Of a stretch of 64,000 bases of DNA, positions 33,691 through 54,225 are shown in pieces. The stretch is from an uncultured Clostridium sp. (GTDB taxonomy: Bacteria > Bacillota > Clostridia > TANB77 > CAG-508): contig CANSJB010000001.1 of the NCBI GenBank assembly GCA_947647115.1, forward strand, positions 1,971-65,970, in the 5' to 3' direction. The notes beneath the pieces were generated by a model, which was not told where the DNA came from, searched no databases, and worked only from the letters and a program-made list of their open reading frames with translations. The translations under genes were made by a program, and so were the position numbers. Every line of letters begins with the position of its first letter. Position 1 is the first letter of the stretch.

Positions 33691-33813
33691 TTGTCATTTT
33701 TGGGACGTTCCTTCTAGTGACACTTTTGTCACTTTTGGGACATACTTTGTATTTTCAAGTCTGTCCCTTTTTTGACACTTTTGTCACTAGAAGGAACGTC
33801 CCTGAAATGACAC
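33691..33813. repeat. Palindromic intercistronic repeat, copy A (TGTCAwwwTAGGGAC-unit hairpin element)
   Basis: Near-perfect ~123-bp palindrome related to the copies at 52381-52505 and 54102-54225. It fills the pheS stop to pheT RBS gap. Confidence 0.8.
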
Positions 33814-33815
33814 AA

Positions 33816-34836
33816 TTAAAATTGTTTTAAAAATCTTACGTCATTTTCATATAATAAGCGCATATCGTCAATGCCAAATTTGGCCATTGCAATTCTTTCT
33901 ACTCCACACCCAAAAGCAAAACCTGTATATTCTTCTGGGTTAATTCCACAATTGCGAAGTACATTGGGATGTACCATACCACAACCGAAGTAGTTCTATC
34001 CAACCTTCTCCCTTGCATACTCTACACCCTTTTCCGCCACATACAAAGCAAGAAACATCTGCTTCTGCACTTGGCTCTGTAAATGGAAAGTGATGTGGCC
34101 TAAATCTAATTTGTGTTTTTTCACCTAAACATTTTTTTGCAAACATGGCAAGTGTTCCTTTTAAGTCTGCCATAGAAATGTTTTTATCGATTACTAACCC
34201 TTCTATTTGGTGGAATACTGGTGAGTGTGTTGCATCTACACTGTCTGAACGGTAAACTACACCTGGGCAAATAATTTTGATTGGTGGTTTTTGGTTTTCC
34301 ATAACTCTTGCTTGCACAGAAGATGTTTGAGAACGAAGTACAATGTCGTCTGTAATGTAAAAGGTATCTTGCACATCTCTTGCTGGATGGTCTGGTGGCG
34401 TATTTAATTTATCAAAATTATAAATAGCAAGTTCTACTTCTGGTCCATCTGCAATTTCATATCCCATACCTATAAATATTTCTTTTACATTATTTACAAT
34501 TTGTGTAATAGGGTGAATGCTGCCTAAAGTTATTTTTTTACTTGGCATTGTTACATCAATATTTTCTTGACTTAATTTTCTTTCAATTTCTAAGTGTTCG
34601 AAGTGTTTTTCGCCTTGTTTAATTTTGGTTTCTAACTCATCTCTTAGTTCATTTACTAAGCTTCCTATGATAGGTCTTTCTTCTGGGCTTAAGCTTCCCA
34701 TTCCTTTCAAAACTGCTGTTAATTCGCCTTTTTTTCCTAAGTATTTTACTCTTACTTCATCTAGTTCTTTGGCGGAGTTTGCTTTGGTAATTTCTTCTAG
34801 TGCATTTTTCCTAATTGTTTCCATTTGCTCTTTCAT
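33816..34836 (-). CDS. pheS: Phenylalanine--tRNA ligase alpha subunit. Needs a +1 frame change at the in-frame CGG (complement of 33984-33986).
   Basis: Class II aaRS core in ORF 33940..34836. The C-terminal [56 protein letters not shown] is read in the +1 frame to the stop at 33816-33818. Confidence 0.85.
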
Positions 34837-34849
34837 TTTGATAACCTCC

Positions 34850-35150
34850 TTTTTATTTTTATGATGCTTTTTTAAGTTTTACTATGTGTTTGTTTCTATT
34901 TATTATTTTAAGTGGTAACAAAAAATGAGCTACATCTCCTATTTATTAGGACGATGTAACTCGTGGTACCACCTAAATTTATTAACTTAAAATAAATAGC
35001 TTCTAAAATTTGCATCATGCTTTTTATTTTTATTGATTAATCTTATTATAGCGATAACGTAGCTAACGCTTTTTCCTAGTTTTGCTTGAAAGCAATTTCA
35101 AAAAAAGACCTCTAAAGTGAAATTTCGTGTAAAAATTATAATAATAAACT
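34850..35150 (-). promoter_or_regulatory. T-box riboswitch leader upstream of pheS
   Basis: On the minus strand, AAATTTAGGTGGTACCACGAG matches the T-box motif AAnnnGGGTGGnACCGCG. The terminator hairpin GAGTTACATCGTCC...GGAGATGTAGCTC plus a T-run follows. Confidence 0.6.
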
Positions 35151-35387
35151 TTCAGCTTTTTGTTTATTTCTCTGTTTTATAGTTTTTTACCTACTTTGCT
35201 TTTTCTATGGTTTTGTTATTTAACTTTTTTTATTGTAGCACTTTTTTTTTTGAAAAGCAAGGGCTTATTTGTACTTTTTTTCGAAATTGTTTGTTATCTA
35301 TTGAATTTTACAACATTTTTTTATATAATTATTTTGTTTTATAGGTTTCATAAAAACCTAAATTTATTTACGTAAGGATTGATAAAT

Positions 35388-36785
35388 ATGGAACAACAAA
35401 GTACTTTAGTTAAAAATTTATATCGTGAAACAGATTCTTTTGTTGGTAAAAGTGTTCAAGTTTCAGGATGGGTAAAGACAATTCGTGATTCAAAAAACTT
35501 TGGCTTTATTGAGTTAAATGATGGTAGTTTTTTTAAGAATGTTCAAATTGTTTTTGATACAGAGCTTAATAATTTTGAAGAGATTAGAAAGTTATCTATT
35601 AGTTCTTCTATTACTGTAAAAGGACAAGTTGTTAAAACAGAAAATGCAAAACAACCTTTTGAAATTAAAGCTCAAAATATTACGATAGAAAATCAGGCAG
35701 ACCTAGATTATCCGCTTCAAAAGAAAAGACATTCTTTTGAGTATTTAAGAACAGTAGGTCATTTGCGCCCAAGAACTAACACTTTTAATGCCGTATTTAG
35801 AGTGCGTAGTGTACTTTCCTTTGCGATTCATAAATTCTTCCAAGAAAGAGGTTTTGTATATGTTCATACCCCTATTATTACTGGAAGTGACTGTGAAGGT
35901 GCTGGCGAAATGTTTAGAGTTACTACGATGGATATGGAAAATGTTGCTAAAACAGAAGATGGTAATGTTGACTATACTCAAGACTTTTTTGGTAAATCTT
36001 CTCACCTTACTGTAAGTGGTCAGTTAGATGTTGAAACCTATGCTCATGCTTTTCGTAATGTTTATACTTTTGGGCCTACCTTTAGAGCTGAAAATTCTAA
36101 TACTGTAAAACATGCTGCTGAATTTTGGATGATAGAACCTGAAATTTGTTTTGCAGATTTGCAAGATGACATGGATTTGGCAGAAGACATGATTAAATAC
36201 ATTATTTCCTATGTGCTTGAAAATGCACCTGAAGAGATGGAATTTTTCAATCAATTTGTAGATGCAGGTCTTTTTGATAGGCTTCACAATGTAGTAAATT
36301 CTGATTTTGGTAGAATTACCTATACAGAGGCTATTAAAGAGCTAGAAAAGGTAAATGACCAATTTGAATACCCTGTTCATTGGGGAACTGATATACAAAC
36401 AGAGCATGAAAGATATTTAAGTGAAAAATTATTTGGTAAACCAGTTTTTGTAACAGACTATCCAAAAGAGATTAAGGCTTTTTATATGAAGCAAAATCCT
36501 GATGGAAAAACAGTTGCTGCTTCTGACCTTCTAGTACCAGGTATTGGCGAAATTATTGGTGGTAGCCAAAGAGAAGATGACTTTGAGAAGTTAAAGGCAC
36601 GTATTAAAGAACTTGGCTTACAAGAAGAAGATTATTGGTGGTACCTAGACTTAAGAAGATATGGTAGTTGTGTTCATAGTGGTTTTGGTTTAGGTTTTGA
36701 AAGAATGATGATGTATTTAACAGGTATGCAAAATATCCGTGATGTACTACCATTCCCTAGAACACCAAAAAATTGTGATTTTTAA
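35388..36785 (+). CDS. asnS: Asparagine--tRNA ligase
   Basis: Class IIb aaRS with an N-terminal OB fold, 466 aa. RBS AAGGA lies 8 nt upstream of the ATG at 35388. Confidence 0.85.
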
Positions 36786-52380: not shown

Positions 52381-52505
52381 TTGTCAATTTAGGGACGTTC
52401 TTTCTAGTGACAAAACTGTCAAAATAGGGACAGTCTTAAAAACTGAAAGTATGTCCCTATAATGACAAAAGTGTCACTAGAAAGAACGTCCCTAAACTGA
52501 CAAAA
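52381..52505. repeat. Palindromic intercistronic repeat, copy B
   Basis: 125-bp near-perfect palindrome with four TGTCAAwwTAGGGAC units. It fills the pflB stop to pflA RBS gap. Confidence 0.85.
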
Positions 52506-52522
52506 TAGGAGAAGATTATAAT

Positions 52523-53237
52523 ATGAATGCACAAATACACTCATTTGAATCTTTTGGTACTGTAGATGGACCTGGTATTAGGTTTGTCATTTTTATGCAA
52601 GGATGTAGTTTAAAATGTAAATATTGCCACAATAGAGATACATGGAATTTATGTGGTGGAACTACCTATAGTCTTAATGAAGTATTATTAAAAATAGAAA
52701 AATACAAAAATTATTTTATGTCTTCTGGTGGGGGTGTCACTCTAAGTGGAGGCGAACCATTATTACAACCTGAATTTATTACTGCATTACTGCAAGAATT
52801 ACAAAAACAAAATATTCATACTGCTATCGATACTTCTGGTAATTTTGCTATTACAGAAGATATTAAAAAAATAATTGATTTGACTGACTTATTTTTGCTT
52901 GATATTAAATGTATTAATGATGAAATTTGCAAAGATTTAACTGGAGTTTCTAATAAGCAAGAGCTTACTTTTGCTAAGTATCTAAGTAGTATTCGGAAAA
53001 CCCATGTGGATAAGACAAGTGTTAGTCCCTGAAATTACTGACAAAGAAGAAGACCTTGTAAAATTAAAAGAGTTTATATCCTCTCTTTCTACTGTAGAAA
53101 AAATAGAGTTTTTACCTTATCATAGCATGGGACGTTTTAAGTGGGAAGATCTTGGTTTTTCCTATGCTTTAGCAGATGTTAGAGAAGCCACTATAGAAGA
53201 TGTAAAAAGAGCTAAAAGAATTGTAACATTATATTAG
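52523..53237 (+). CDS. pflA: Pyruvate formate-lyase activating enzyme (radical SAM). Needs a +1 frame change at the in-frame CGG at 52994-52996.
   Basis: CxxxCxxC (CSLKCKYCHN) in ORF 52523..53032. The C-terminal GKPMWIRQVLVPEITD...FLPYHSMG continues in the +1 frame (ORF 53004..53237). Confidence 0.85.
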
Positions 53238-53245
53238 CTCTTTAT

Positions 53246-54088
53246 CTATTCTTTTATAACTTTCTTTAGTCCAAATGTAATAAAATAAATAACTCCCGAA
53301 ATTAGTACAATCATTGGCCCTGTTGGAATATTCCAATAATAAGAGATGATAAGTCCCATTACACCTGAAAATAATGAAAATATAATAGAAAATAAATGGT
53401 AACTTCTCATATTTCTAGCTATATTTCTGCTAGAAGCTGCTGGCAAAATTAGCAAAGAGTTAATAAGTAAAATACCTATCCAGCGAATCGAAATCATAAC
53501 AATTACCGCAATTAAAATAATAAAAATATTATCTATTAACTTTGTGTTTACTCCTCTACTTTTAGCAAGTGTTGTATTAATACTAAGTATATTTAATTTA
53601 TTAAATATAAAATACCAAAATGCAATAACTAGAATAAAGGATAAAAATAAGTATAAGATTTCAGTATCACTAATACTTAAAATATCTCCTACTAAATAAC
53701 TAGAATATTTATTAAAATTCCCACTCGAAGCAAGCATTGAAAGTCCCAGTGCTATAGCAATAGAAGAAAATACACTAATAATAGTATCTGCTCCATAGGT
53801 AGTTTTATTTTTTACATAATTGAGTAATAGAGCAAATACTACTGCAAAAAAAATCATTGAAATATTCATATTGGTAATTCCAAACACCATTCCAATTGCA
53901 ATACCAGTTAATGCTGAATGTCCTAATGCATCTGAAAAAAATGCCATCTTATTATTTACAATCATAGTTCCCAAAATGGCAAAAACAGGTGTTACTAAAA
54001 TAATAGCAAGTAACGCATTTTTCATAAAGGTATATTGCATAAACTCAAATGGTAATAGGGTTTCTAATATACTATAAATTGTTTCCAT
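53246..54088 (-). CDS. Metal (Zn/Mn) ABC transporter permease, ABC-3 family
   Basis: 280-aa polytopic ZnuB/MntB-like protein. RBS AGGAG. Confidence 0.75.
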   Translation of the reverse strand: METIYSILETLLPFEFMQYTFMKNALLAIILVTPVFAILGTMIVNNKMAFFSDALGHSALTGIAIGMVFGITNMNISMIFFAVVFALLLNYVKNKTTYGADTIISVFSSIAIALGLSMLASSGNFNKYSSYLVGDILSISDTEILYLFLSFILVIAFWYFIFNKLNILSINTTLAKSRGVNTKLIDNIFIILIAVIVMISIRWIGILLINSLLILPAASSRNIARNMRSYHLFSIIFSLFSGVMGLIISYYWNIPTGPMIVLISGVIYFITFGLKKVIKE

Positions 54089-54101
54089 CTTTTCTCCTTT
54101 T

Positions 54102-54225
54102 TTGTCAATTTAGGGACGTTCTTTTTTTTGACACTTTTGTCATTTCAGGGACACTCGTGATATATTTTAAAGTCTGTCCCTCTTTTGACATTTTTGTCAT
54201 TTTAAAGAACGTCCCTAAATTGACA
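54102..54225. repeat. Palindromic intercistronic repeat, copy C (more degenerate)
   Basis: Same TTGTCAATTTAGGGACGTTC termini. It fills the znuC stop to znuB RBS gap. Confidence 0.8.

What the first reader, a model, noticed from the sequence alone, without database searches (positions are those of the whole stretch)
33691..54225. Family of ~125-bp near-perfect palindromic elements that exactly fill intercistronic gaps inside operons (3 copies)
The copies lie at 33691-33813 (pheS stop to pheT RBS), 52381-52505 (pflB stop to pflA RBS) and 54102-54225 (znuC stop to znuB RBS). They share the termini TTGTCAATTTAGGGACGTTC...GAACGTCCCTAAATTGACA and a mirrored internal unit. Each element is built from four copies of a 15-nt unit TGTCAAwwTAGGGAC, two direct and two inverted, giving a hairpin stem of at least 50 bp in DNA or RNA. 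All three lie within 15-25 nt upstream of the RBS of the distal cistron and directly after the stop of the proximal cistron. Copy A overlaps the pheS stop, and copy C would be entered by ZnuC if its CGG shifts. Possible roles are a REP/BOX-like mRNA processing or stability element such as an RNase III target, a MITE with preferred operon-internal insertion, or an array of protein-binding sites. The TGTCA/TGACA half-site recurs in the operator-like palindrome at 49340-49385.
Basis: seen in the sequence. Interest (0 to 1): 0.7.

Follow-up and report, generated by a model that had tools for sequence, protein, structure and literature searches.

The report
REP-like transposon relics between operon genes
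The three 122-124 bp palindromes are real and are non-coding, hairpin-forming repeats of the REP/REPIN kind, tied in related gut Clostridia to a domesticated single-strand-DNA (Y1/HUH) transposase gene; this is an interesting new example of a known kind of element, not a new kind.

Summary
Three related palindromes lie at 33691-33812, 52381-52503 and 54102-54225. They are 80-87% identical to one another and fold into long hairpins (z -12 to -17). Each sits between the stop codon of one cistron and the Shine-Dalgarno of the next (pheS/pheT, pflB/pflA, ABC ATPase/permease).

They belong to a large family in uncultured low-GC Clostridia MAGs from animal guts. Its unit is a ~58-nt "arm", which occurs singly, as inverted doublets (the window form) or as shorter palindromes.

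In every relative examined, inverted arms flank a single-locus 260-270 aa gene. That gene encodes a Y1/HUH transposase whose closest solved structure is E. coli TnpA_REP (4ER8), with an added C-terminal HTH-like domain. This matches the RAYT subclass 2.1 / "TIRYT" type.

Across 31-58% identical relatives, the flanking repeat keeps one hairpin: a covarying stem around a conserved GGGACGTTC loop. Two transposase paralogues at two fixed loci carry two different arm variants.

Best reading: these are REPIN-like non-autonomous elements, mobilised in trans and kept only where insertion is harmless. Any mRNA-level effect is untested. The window holds no transposase gene, and none was found for this genome.

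Novelty: new member of a known kind.

The parts
33691..33812 (.). Element A. Full palindrome (two inverted ~56-nt arms plus a 9-nt spacer), between the pheS stop (33816-33818, minus strand) and the pheT SD/ATG (33666). Transcribed on the minus strand.
52381..52503 (.). Element B. Full palindrome between the pflB stop (52377-52379) and the pflA SD/ATG (52523). Transcribed on the plus strand.
   Evidence: The same element is present in the independent contig L119.
54102..54225 (.). Element C. Full palindrome with a 21-nt spacer, between the stop of the ABC ATPase gene (54236-54238, minus strand) and the ATG of the ABC-3 permease gene (54088).
   Evidence: Contig L119 breaks inside it.
33692..33722 (+). 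Example of the outer hairpin module of an arm: stem TGTCA/TGACA around the loop TTTTTGGGACGTTCCTTCTAG. The same module occurs at all six element ends: 33692, 33812(-), 52382, 52502(-), 54103, 54225(-).
   Evidence: stem covaries and loop is conserved across 122 sequences.
33727..33742 (+). Example of the inner module, TGTCAnnnTnGGGACA. In relatives it reads GGGGACAC, which fits the published TIRYT motif GGGGWSAS.
   Evidence: PMC3733652 and PMC6006769.
31255..33666 (-). pheT, the distal cistron after element A.
33816..34836 (-). pheS, the proximal cistron before element A. It is split by a 1-nt insertion near 33985 in this assembly.
50088..52379 (+). pflB, the proximal cistron before element B.
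52523..53237 (+). pflA, the distal cistron after element B. It is split by an extra A near 52997.
53246..54088 (-). ABC-3 family permease (ZnuB/MntB type), the distal cistron after element C.
54236..54946 (-). ABC transporter ATPase (ZnuC type), the proximal cistron before element C. The ZnuA-type binding protein gene lies upstream at 54967-55860.

Best explanation
**What the elements are.** They are REPIN-like doublets: two ~56-nt arms in inverted orientation. The family is propagated and maintained by a single-copy, vertically inherited Y1 (HUH) transposase of the RAYT subclass 2.1 / TIRYT type, encoded elsewhere in the genome.

**Structure of an arm.**
- An outer hairpin: a variable 5-8 bp stem around the conserved loop (A/G)GGGACGTTC(C/T)TTTT.
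- An inner TGTCA-N5-GGGGACA(C) module.

**Inferred mechanism.** By analogy with TnpA_REP and IS200/IS605 TnpA, the enzyme recognises the hairpin on single-stranded DNA, probably the lagging-strand template. It then cuts and rejoins there, moving arms or arm doublets.

**Why they sit where they do.** Copies persist only where they do no harm. In these compact genomes that is mostly the 20-30 nt between a stop codon and the next Shine-Dalgarno, so they appear to fill intercistronic gaps exactly.

**Consequence for the mRNA.** The elements are co-transcribed and have no U-tract after the hairpin in the sense direction, so they should not terminate transcription. The ~50-bp RNA hairpin could still alter mRNA decay or termination-proximal translation, as a side effect.

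**Shown versus inferred.**
- Shown: the family, its architecture, the association with the transposase gene, hairpin covariation, paralogue-specific arm variants, and turnover between genomes.
- Inferred: catalysis on these arms, the single-strand mechanism, and any RNA effect.
For: 1. **Family.** A profile of the three copies finds about 55 related elements in low-GC Clostridia MAG loci, as single arms, doublets and short palindromes.
2. **Flanking of the transposase gene.** Inverted arms flank a 260-270 aa gene in L088, L100 and L102.
3. **Same result without selecting on the element.** Contigs fetched by protein identity alone also carry the arms: L121-L137 and L218-L220. Among 73 testable metagenome loci of 31-58% identical relatives, 38 show a clear flanking inverted repeat with the same core.
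4. **The protein.**
   - Pfam Y1_Tnp, E 1e-11 to 1e-13.
   - Best NCBIfam hit is REP-associated tyrosine transposase, 47-60 bits, against 17-22 bits for IS200.
   - HUH, YIHxNP and GHxFxNRF motifs are invariant.
   - The only PDB sequence hit is 4ER8 TnpA_REP.
   - The AF2 model (pLDDT 85) is closest to 4er8_A, TM 0.71.
   - A C-terminal HTH-like domain is present.
5. **Hairpin.**
   - 207 of 331 GGGACG cores lie inside a perfect stem of 6 bp or more, against 34 of 328 with shuffled flanks; there are 113 distinct stems.
   - In a fixed-frame alignment of 122 sequences, 66% of cells pair, against 42.5% when shuffled and 39-46% when slid.
   - The covariation score is 0.56 against 0.22, with 0 of 500 shuffles as high.
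6. **Fixed loci and matched variants.** The gene sits at a fixed locus in genomes whose proteins are only 48% identical: between GH15 and radA, with GTTCC-type arms. A second paralogue sits upstream of dnaE, between an S4-domain gene and dnaE in L131-L135 and directly after a UvrD/AddA-type helicase gene in L220, and carries GTTAG-type arms. One genome has both.
7. **Turnover.**
   - A site empty in the window and in L055 is filled in L037 and L020.
   - Orthologous gaps hold a doublet (L001), a half element (L013) or a different variant (L091, L013).
   - The element is flipped between L060 and L027.
   - Copies resemble others in the same genome (80-88%) more than their positional orthologues (70-74%).
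8. **Orientation.** Single arms run 20 sense to 5 antisense relative to their flanking genes, as expected for strand-specific transposition.
9. **Literature.** TIRYT/TIRtron and the GGGGWSAS motif (PMC3733652); subclass 2.1 with an HTH domain (PMC6006769); RAYT Group 1 found in Clostridia (PMC5581495).
Against: - No transposase gene is in the 64-kb window. The cognate gene of this genome was not found, so the system may be extinct here and the copies may be relics.
- The NCBIfam RAYT score is below the curated cut-off (60 against 80).
- No biochemical data exist for this subclass, to my knowledge.
- No clean empty-versus-filled junction was recovered, so the target site and the absence of a duplication are not rigorously established.
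- All three window sites are occupied in every relative available. That could also mean the elements are selected at those sites.
- The orientation bias is not corrected for orthologous copies. It cannot separate replication-linked from transcription-linked causes.
Confidence: 0.72

Rival explanations
1. Selected RNA element. The hairpins are kept in operon junctions because, as part of the polycistronic mRNA, they set the relative expression of the flanking cistrons. Possible routes are RNase III cleavage, a block to 3' exonucleases, or ribosome stalling at the nearby stop codon.
For: - All three copies lie inside operons and would be transcribed.
- The RNA hairpins are very stable and are not followed by a U-tract.
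- The three junctions are occupied in every relative seen.
- The hairpin begins 1-10 nt after the stop codon. In E. coli this arrangement lowers upstream translation (Liang, Rudd and Deutscher 2015, from my own knowledge; not retrievable here).
- Single arms are biased to the sense orientation.
Against: - The occupants of the same junction differ in form (doublet, half element, other variant) and in orientation. That is hard to reconcile with a conserved RNA function.
- The operons are functionally unrelated.
- The conserved part is a loop motif tied to a transposase gene, not the long stem.
- There are no expression data.
- This reading is compatible with the best explanation as a secondary effect.
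Confidence: 0.15
2. Classical MITE: a deletion derivative of a DDE-type insertion sequence with terminal inverted repeats, mobilised by that IS.
For: The size (~125 bp), the near-perfect inverted halves and the intergenic location are MITE-like.
Against: - No direct duplication is visible at the ends of the three copies.
- The only gene found bounded by the arms is a Y1/HUH transposase. This holds in more than 25 loci, including loci chosen without reference to the arms.
- Single arms are the commonest form. DDE-type MITEs do not show this; REP singlets do.
Confidence: 0.04
3. Array of binding sites for a DNA-binding protein (a regulator or nucleoid protein) that recognises TGTCA-N5-GGGAC, with no mobility involved.
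For: - Four regularly spaced units per element, 35 nt apart.
- The associated protein carries an HTH-like domain that could bind double-stranded DNA.
Against: - The stem sequence varies freely between lineages while pairing is kept. That points to a structure, not a fixed duplex site.
- Copies appear, disappear and flip between related genomes.
- The sites lie after stop codons rather than at promoters.
Confidence: 0.05

Closest known systems
TIRtrons / TIRYT repeats (Di Nocera et al. 2013, PMC3733652); equivalent to TnpA_REP subclass 2.1 (Quentin et al. 2018, PMC6006769)
   Same: - A RAYT-like Y1 gene longer than classical RAYTs, with a C-terminal HTH-like domain.
- The gene is flanked by long inverted repeats rather than GTAG-tagged REPs.
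- The repeats carry a GGGG(A/T)(C/G)A(C/G)-type motif; here the inner module reads GGGGACAC.
- The repeats are also dispersed in the genome as singles, dimers and groups.
   Different: - The host is an uncultured gut Clostridia lineage.
- The outer module is a true hairpin with a covarying stem and a conserved GGGACGTTC loop. Quentin et al. reported finding no REP-like sequences next to subclass 2.1 genes.
- Arms have two modules.
- Two paralogues with matched arm variants sit at fixed chromosomal loci.
- I could not place the protein in their tree, so subclass assignment rests on domain architecture only.
REP / REPIN-RAYT systems of Proteobacteria (Nunvar 2010; Bertels and Rainey 2011, PMC3116915; Ton-Hoang 2012; Messing 2012, PDB 4ER8)
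   Same: - Short extragenic hairpin repeats, with inverted doublets (REPINs) as one form.
- A single-copy, syntenic Y1 transposase gene flanked by the repeats.
- Repeat variants matched to enzyme paralogues.
- The closest solved structure to the protein is TnpA_REP.
   Different: - No GTAG tetranucleotide tag.
- The conserved motif sits in the loop rather than at the foot of the stem.
- Arms are about 56 nt with two modules, against 20-40 nt REPs.
- The protein has an extra HTH-like domain and scores below the NCBIfam RAYT cut-off.
IS200/IS605 family (IS608, ISDra2)
   Same: HUH/Y1 catalytic fold, hairpin recognition on single-stranded DNA, strand-biased insertion, and no target duplication.
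   Different: - The gene is single-copy at a fixed locus and is not itself multiplied.
- Its ends are inverted copies of one arm, not distinct left and right ends.
- IS200 profile scores are much weaker than RAYT scores.
Gram-positive MITE-like repeats (BOX and RUP of Streptococcus pneumoniae, EFAR of enterococci, Bcr1 of Bacillus cereus)
   Same: Repeats of about 100-150 bp in Firmicutes, intergenic, co-transcribed and hairpin-forming.
   Different: No sequence similarity was seen. Those elements are tied to DDE-type IS elements or have no known transposase. This comparison is from my own knowledge and the PMC3733652 introduction, and was not tested here.

Membership tests
REP/REPIN-RAYT system | A Y1 (HUH plus catalytic Tyr) transposase with RAYT-specific motifs. 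| tested here: met
   Tested in relatives only.
- Pfam Y1_Tnp.
- Invariant NHxH, YIHxNP and GHxFxNRF motifs.
- The only PDB hit is 4ER8.
- The AF2 model is closest to 4er8_A.
- The NCBIfam RAYT model is the best hit but below cut-off, 60 against 80.
REP/REPIN-RAYT system | The transposase gene is flanked by the repeats in inverted orientation. | tested here: met
   L088, L100, L102, L121-L137 and L218-L220, plus 38 of 73 metagenome loci.
REP/REPIN-RAYT system | The transposase is single-copy, at a conserved locus and vertically inherited. | tested here: met
   The GH15-radA locus is shared by proteins 48-100% identical. A second paralogue always lies upstream of dnaE. Copy number per complete genome was not checked.
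REP/REPIN-RAYT system | A cognate transposase gene is present in the same genome as the repeats. | tested here: inconclusive
   None is present in the 64-kb window. The rest of this MAG could not be read, and no fetched locus carries the window's arm variant.
REP/REPIN-RAYT system | Repeats are abundant and extragenic, occurring as singlets and inverted doublets. | tested here: met
   Three copies per 64 kb in the window. There are about 55 in fetched loci of related MAGs, all intergenic apart from ends that overlap a flanking ORF by up to 24 nt. Genome-wide counts are not available.
REP/REPIN-RAYT system | The repeat is a short imperfect palindrome tagged by GTAG. | tested here: not met
   There is no GTAG tag. 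The conserved motif is GGGACGTTC, inside the loop.
REP/REPIN-RAYT system | The enzyme binds and cleaves the repeat as single-stranded DNA. | not testable with these tools
   Needs biochemistry.
TIRYT / TIRtron (subclass 2.1) | A RAYT-like protein with a C-terminal HTH-type extension. | tested here: met
   About 120 extra residues, all helical in the model. There is a weak HTH_23 hit, and Q239/R242 are conserved.
TIRYT / TIRtron (subclass 2.1) | Long flanking inverted repeats containing GGGGWSAS. | tested here: met
   The inner module reads GGGGACAC in most relatives. In the window it is degraded to (A/T)GGGACA(G/T/C).
TIRYT / TIRtron (subclass 2.1) | Placement inside subclass 2.1 in a phylogeny with reference members. 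| not tested
DDE-type MITE | Target-site duplication, and a parent IS with the same termini. | tested here: not met
   No duplication is visible at the six ends. The only gene bounded by the arms is a Y1 transposase.
Rfam RNA families | A match to a curated covariance model. | tested here: not met
   No gathering-level hit in the window. The only other hits are eukaryotic miRNA-hairpin models far below threshold.

The most novel reading that the evidence does not exclude
This would be the first worked-out REPIN-like population in Firmicutes/Clostridia. It would also show that the HTH-bearing RAYT subclass 2.1/TIRYT, reported to lack REPs, recognises a hairpin whose loop (GGGACGTTC) is conserved while its stem is free to vary. 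That signature holds across relatives down to about 31% identity. Paralogue-specific arm variants sit at fixed loci. Copies at operon junctions are recurrently replaced or homogenised, and may have been co-opted to tune cistron ratios.
Probability: 0.3. Interest if true: 0.6.

Novelty: new member of a known kind. Interest (0 to 1): 0.45.

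Why it matters
- **Wider host range.** REP/REPIN-RAYT systems have been studied almost only in Proteobacteria. A clear case in uncultured gut Clostridia extends that range.
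- **A testable recognition element.** A conserved loop in a covarying stem, with enzyme paralogues matched to arm variants, gives a concrete hypothesis for a transposase subclass with no known substrate.
- **Practical effects.**
  - These palindromes break short-read assemblies. Contigs L119 and L120 end inside them.
  - They sit in essential operons.
  - They could serve as strain markers.
  - They place ~50-bp hairpins in polycistronic mRNAs, where effects on decay or translation can be measured.

Tried and rejected
- **Rfam.** The whole window at gathering threshold gave nothing. The E-value mode gave only spurious miRNA-precursor hits.
- **Plasmid and phage collections.** The element has no match in either.
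- **Transposase in the window.** tblastn found none.
- **Window's own contig.** An exact-protein look-up of pheT is not on record.
- **Cognate transposase of this genome.** Further look-ups (P0007, P0031, P0016) and a search of all fetched loci for the window's arm variant did not find it.
- **PDB.** phmmer with one sequence gave no hit. A profile was needed.
- **Terminator function.** No terminator-like site lies at the elements.
- **Link to the 49340-49385 palindrome.** Rejected on sequence.
- **Clean empty-site junction.** At window ~21274, compared with L037, L020 and L055, the far flank has diverged too much to define a target.
- **Rule linking the 4-nt mini-loop version to transcription direction.** It holds for the three window copies but not for single arms in relatives.
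- **CGTC-tagged REPs.** Considered because GAACGTCCC contains CGTC, but rejected. Those have 8-9 bp stems, 4-5 nt loops and the tag outside the stem.

Full report
**1. The observation**

An all-against-all repeat search finds them as the only long repeat family in the window.

- A profile built from them scores each at 112-122 bits.
- The 15-nt unit TGTCA-N5-GGGAC occurs 12 times with at most two mismatches, four per element, and nowhere else in 64 kb.
- As RNA each folds into one long hairpin on either strand: -57 to -83 kcal/mol, z -12 to -17.7, and 0 of 200 shuffles as good.
- As DNA the energies are -34 to -46 kcal/mol.
- ORF calls and Pfam confirm the neighbours as pheS/pheT, pflB/pflA, and a ZnuA-type binding protein, an ABC ATPase and an ABC-3 permease.

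Small corrections:
- Element A ends 3 nt before the pheS stop rather than overlapping it.
- The elements end 13-24 nt before the next start codon, 4-9 nt before its Shine-Dalgarno.
- Without the elements the three junctions would be ordinary spacers of 21-27 nt.
- The inverted repeat at 49340-49385 reads TTTCGACAAAA/TTTTGTCGAAA. It lacks both TGTCA and GGGAC, so it is unrelated.

**2. The family outside the window**

A scan of one genome per species with the terminal pattern returned many chance hits in high-GC genomes. It also returned a dense cluster in uncultured low-GC "Clostridia bacterium" MAGs from mouse, rabbit and other guts.

The profile finds about 55 elements in those loci. Most are not full palindromes but single ~58-nt arms:

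TGTCAnnTTnGGGACGTTCCTTTTnnTGACAAAAGTGTCAnnTTnGGGACAnACCTT

Others are inverted doublets like the window copies (L001, L027, L056, L060) or shorter 64-80 nt palindromes (L090, L091 and others).

Short-read contigs of the same or a near-identical strain (L119, L120) end inside elements C and A, as expected for a dispersed repeat.

**3. The associated gene**

In L100, L088 and L102, inverted arms bracket a 260-270 aa ORF. It is a Y1/HUH transposase:
- Pfam Y1_Tnp.
- The best NCBIfam model is "REP-associated tyrosine transposase", below its cut-off but well above IS200.
- The motifs NHxH, GHxFxNRF and YIHxNP are invariant in 30 homologues.
- A profile of the family hits only E. coli TnpA_REP in the PDB.
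- An AlphaFold model (pLDDT 85) is closest to that structure, TM 0.71, ahead of IS608 and ISDra2 TnpA.
- About 120 extra C-terminal residues are helical and weakly HTH-like.

Those first loci had been fetched through the repeat itself, so I repeated the test on loci chosen by protein alone.
- Contigs carrying P0002, P0020, P0007, P0031 and P0016 all have arms on both sides.
- Among 73 testable metagenome loci of relatives at 31-58% identity, 38 show a clear flanking inverted repeat. More are masked because the repeat is itself palindromic.

**4. What is conserved**

Across all these relatives the repeat keeps one feature: a hairpin whose stem differs from lineage to lineage while its loop stays (A/G)GGGACGTTC(C/T)TTTT. 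Example stems are TGTCAG/CTGACA, TTGTCAC/GTGACAA, GGAAGCA/TGCTTCC, GCCAACA/TGTTGGC and TGTCGCAC/GTGCGACA.

- Of 331 GGGACG cores, 207 lie inside a perfect stem of 6 bp or more, against 34 of 328 with shuffled flanks. There are 113 distinct stems.
- In a gap-free, unselected alignment of 122 such sites, 66% of cells pair. Shuffled columns give 42.5% and slid partners give 39-46%.
- The covariation score is 0.56 against 0.22, and no shuffle in 500 reaches it.

This signature indicates a structure-specific recognition element. It is what Y1 transposases use on single-stranded DNA.

**5. Signs of a domesticated, cognate enzyme**

- The gene lies between a GH15 glucoamylase gene and radA in genomes whose proteins are only 48% identical. 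There it carries GTTCC-type arms.
- A second paralogue always lies upstream of dnaE, between an S4-domain gene and dnaE in L131-L135 and directly after a UvrD/AddA-type helicase gene in L220. It carries GTTAG-type arms.
- One assembly has both paralogues.

The window copies are of the GTTC(C/T) type.

**6. Turnover**

Several fetched loci are syntenic with the window at about 70-80% nucleotide identity.
- The pheS-pheT gap holds a doublet in L001, but a palindrome of a different variant in L091.
- In L013 the pflB-pflA gap holds only a single arm, and the transporter gap holds a single arm of the other variant.
- The window copies are 80-87% identical to each other, but copy A is only 74% identical to its positional orthologue. 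The L013 arm matches copies of its own lineage (84-88%) better than window copy B (70-73%).
- L060 and L027 carry the same element at the same site in opposite orientation.
- Next to the ribosome-binding site of one gene, L037 and L020 have an arm where L055 and the window (about 21274) have none.

So copies are gained, lost, flipped or homogenised on the time scale that separates these genomes.

**7. Position and orientation**

Of 51 classifiable copies, 44 lie between co-directional genes, 5 between convergent genes and 2 between divergent genes. The outer end is often 0-9 nt after a stop codon or just before a Shine-Dalgarno.

The simplest reading is survivorship. In compact genomes this is the only place where a 60-125 nt insertion leaves both genes and the ribosome-binding site intact.

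Single arms are oriented 20 to 5 with the GGGACGTTC strand as the sense strand (binomial p 0.004, inflated by some orthologous copies). This fits strand-specific transposition linked to replication, as in IS608. It could equally reflect selection on the mRNA, and I could not separate the two.

No terminator-like U-tract follows the hairpins in the sense direction.

**8. Comparison with what is known**

- Di Nocera et al. (PMC3733652) described RAYT-like genes flanked by long inverted repeats instead of GTAG-tagged REPs. They named these TIRYT and TIRtrons, noted a shared GGGGWSAS motif, and found that some repeat families are dispersed as singles, dimers or groups.
- Quentin et al. (PMC6006769) equated these with TnpA_REP subclass 2.1, the class with a C-terminal HTH-type domain. 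They reported finding no REP-like sequences next to those genes.
- Bertels et al. (PMC5581495) noted that RAYT Group 1 occurs in Clostridia with only modestly repeated flanking 16-mers.

The present family fits this kind. It has a long protein with an HTH-like tail, long inverted arms, GGGGACAC in the inner module, and dispersed singles and doublets.

It differs from classical REPs in having no GTAG tag and in carrying its conserved motif in the loop. It is not a CGTC-tagged REP.

No paper in the searchable library mentions this motif or the TIRYT type in Clostridia. No Rfam family, plasmid or phage record matches.

**9. Verdict**

A DDE-type MITE, a preference for operons and the link to the 49340 palindrome are not supported. 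An effect on mRNA is plausible but untested.

The main gap is that the transposase gene of this particular genome was not seen. Mobilisation by the enzyme is inferred from association and from homology to TnpA_REP.

Novelty is new member of a known kind, with some added value from the conserved-loop hairpin and the paralogue-matched variants.

Noticed in passing
window 33940-34000 (pheS) and 52990-53035 (pflA): Both genes next to elements A and B are split by 1-nt frameshifts. pheS has CTTCGG where L001 has CTT-GG. pflA has an extra A in an A-run. Contig L119 (3.8x coverage, 100% identical) shows the same pflA split. These may be assembly errors or real pseudogenes.
   Followed up: partly
window 49347-49390: An 11-bp inverted repeat, TTTCGACAAAA ... 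TTTTGTCGAAA, lies upstream of an Xre-type HTH gene (49583-49924) and pflB, in a region conserved in L013. It looks like an operator and is unrelated to the element family.
   Followed up: partly
L060 3834-3961 versus L027 4343-4470: In the same orthologous gap of two related MAGs, the doublet is 98% identical only as its reverse complement. It has been flipped in place or re-inserted in the other orientation.
   Followed up: partly
L121 about 2660-2830; also L014 from 4357: The arm upstream of the transposase gene is split between its outer and inner modules by a ~120-nt insert (GATGAATAAGTGAGCGCTGCCTGTGGCAG...GATGCTCGCAG). The same insert start is seen in another MAG. There is no Rfam match.
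   Followed up: partly
L091 7531-7673; L013 4970-5045; L055 1654; L131 3805-3854; L220 976-1030 and 2050-2103: A second arm variant (GGGACGTTAGTTT, some copies with TGTCGCAC/GTGCGACA stems) goes with the second transposase paralogue upstream of dnaE. In relatives it occupies junctions that hold the first variant in the window.
   Followed up: partly
window 33718-33731, 33773-33786, 52408-52421, 52463-52476, 54129-54142, 54184-54197: In each element the two TGACA-NNNN-TGTCA mini-palindromes carry the same 4-nt loop on one strand instead of complementary loops. This gives the symmetric 4x4 internal loops of the long hairpin. In all three copies the mRNA-sense strand has the purine-rich version (AAAG/AAAC/AAAA). 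The rule does not hold for single arms in relatives.
   Followed up: partly
L119 1-60 and L120 1-55: Independent short-read contigs of the same or a near-identical strain end inside elements C and A. The palindromes break assemblies.
   Followed up: yes
window 1-64000, especially 34837-35380: Rfam at gathering threshold finds nothing in 64 kb: no tRNA and no T-box leader before pheS. In L091 and L112 the region upstream of pheS holds a short palindrome of the family.
   Followed up: no
window about 21230-21290: This is an empty site. The window and L055 lack the single arm that L037 and L020 carry just upstream of the ribosome-binding site of the orthologous gene.
   Followed up: yes
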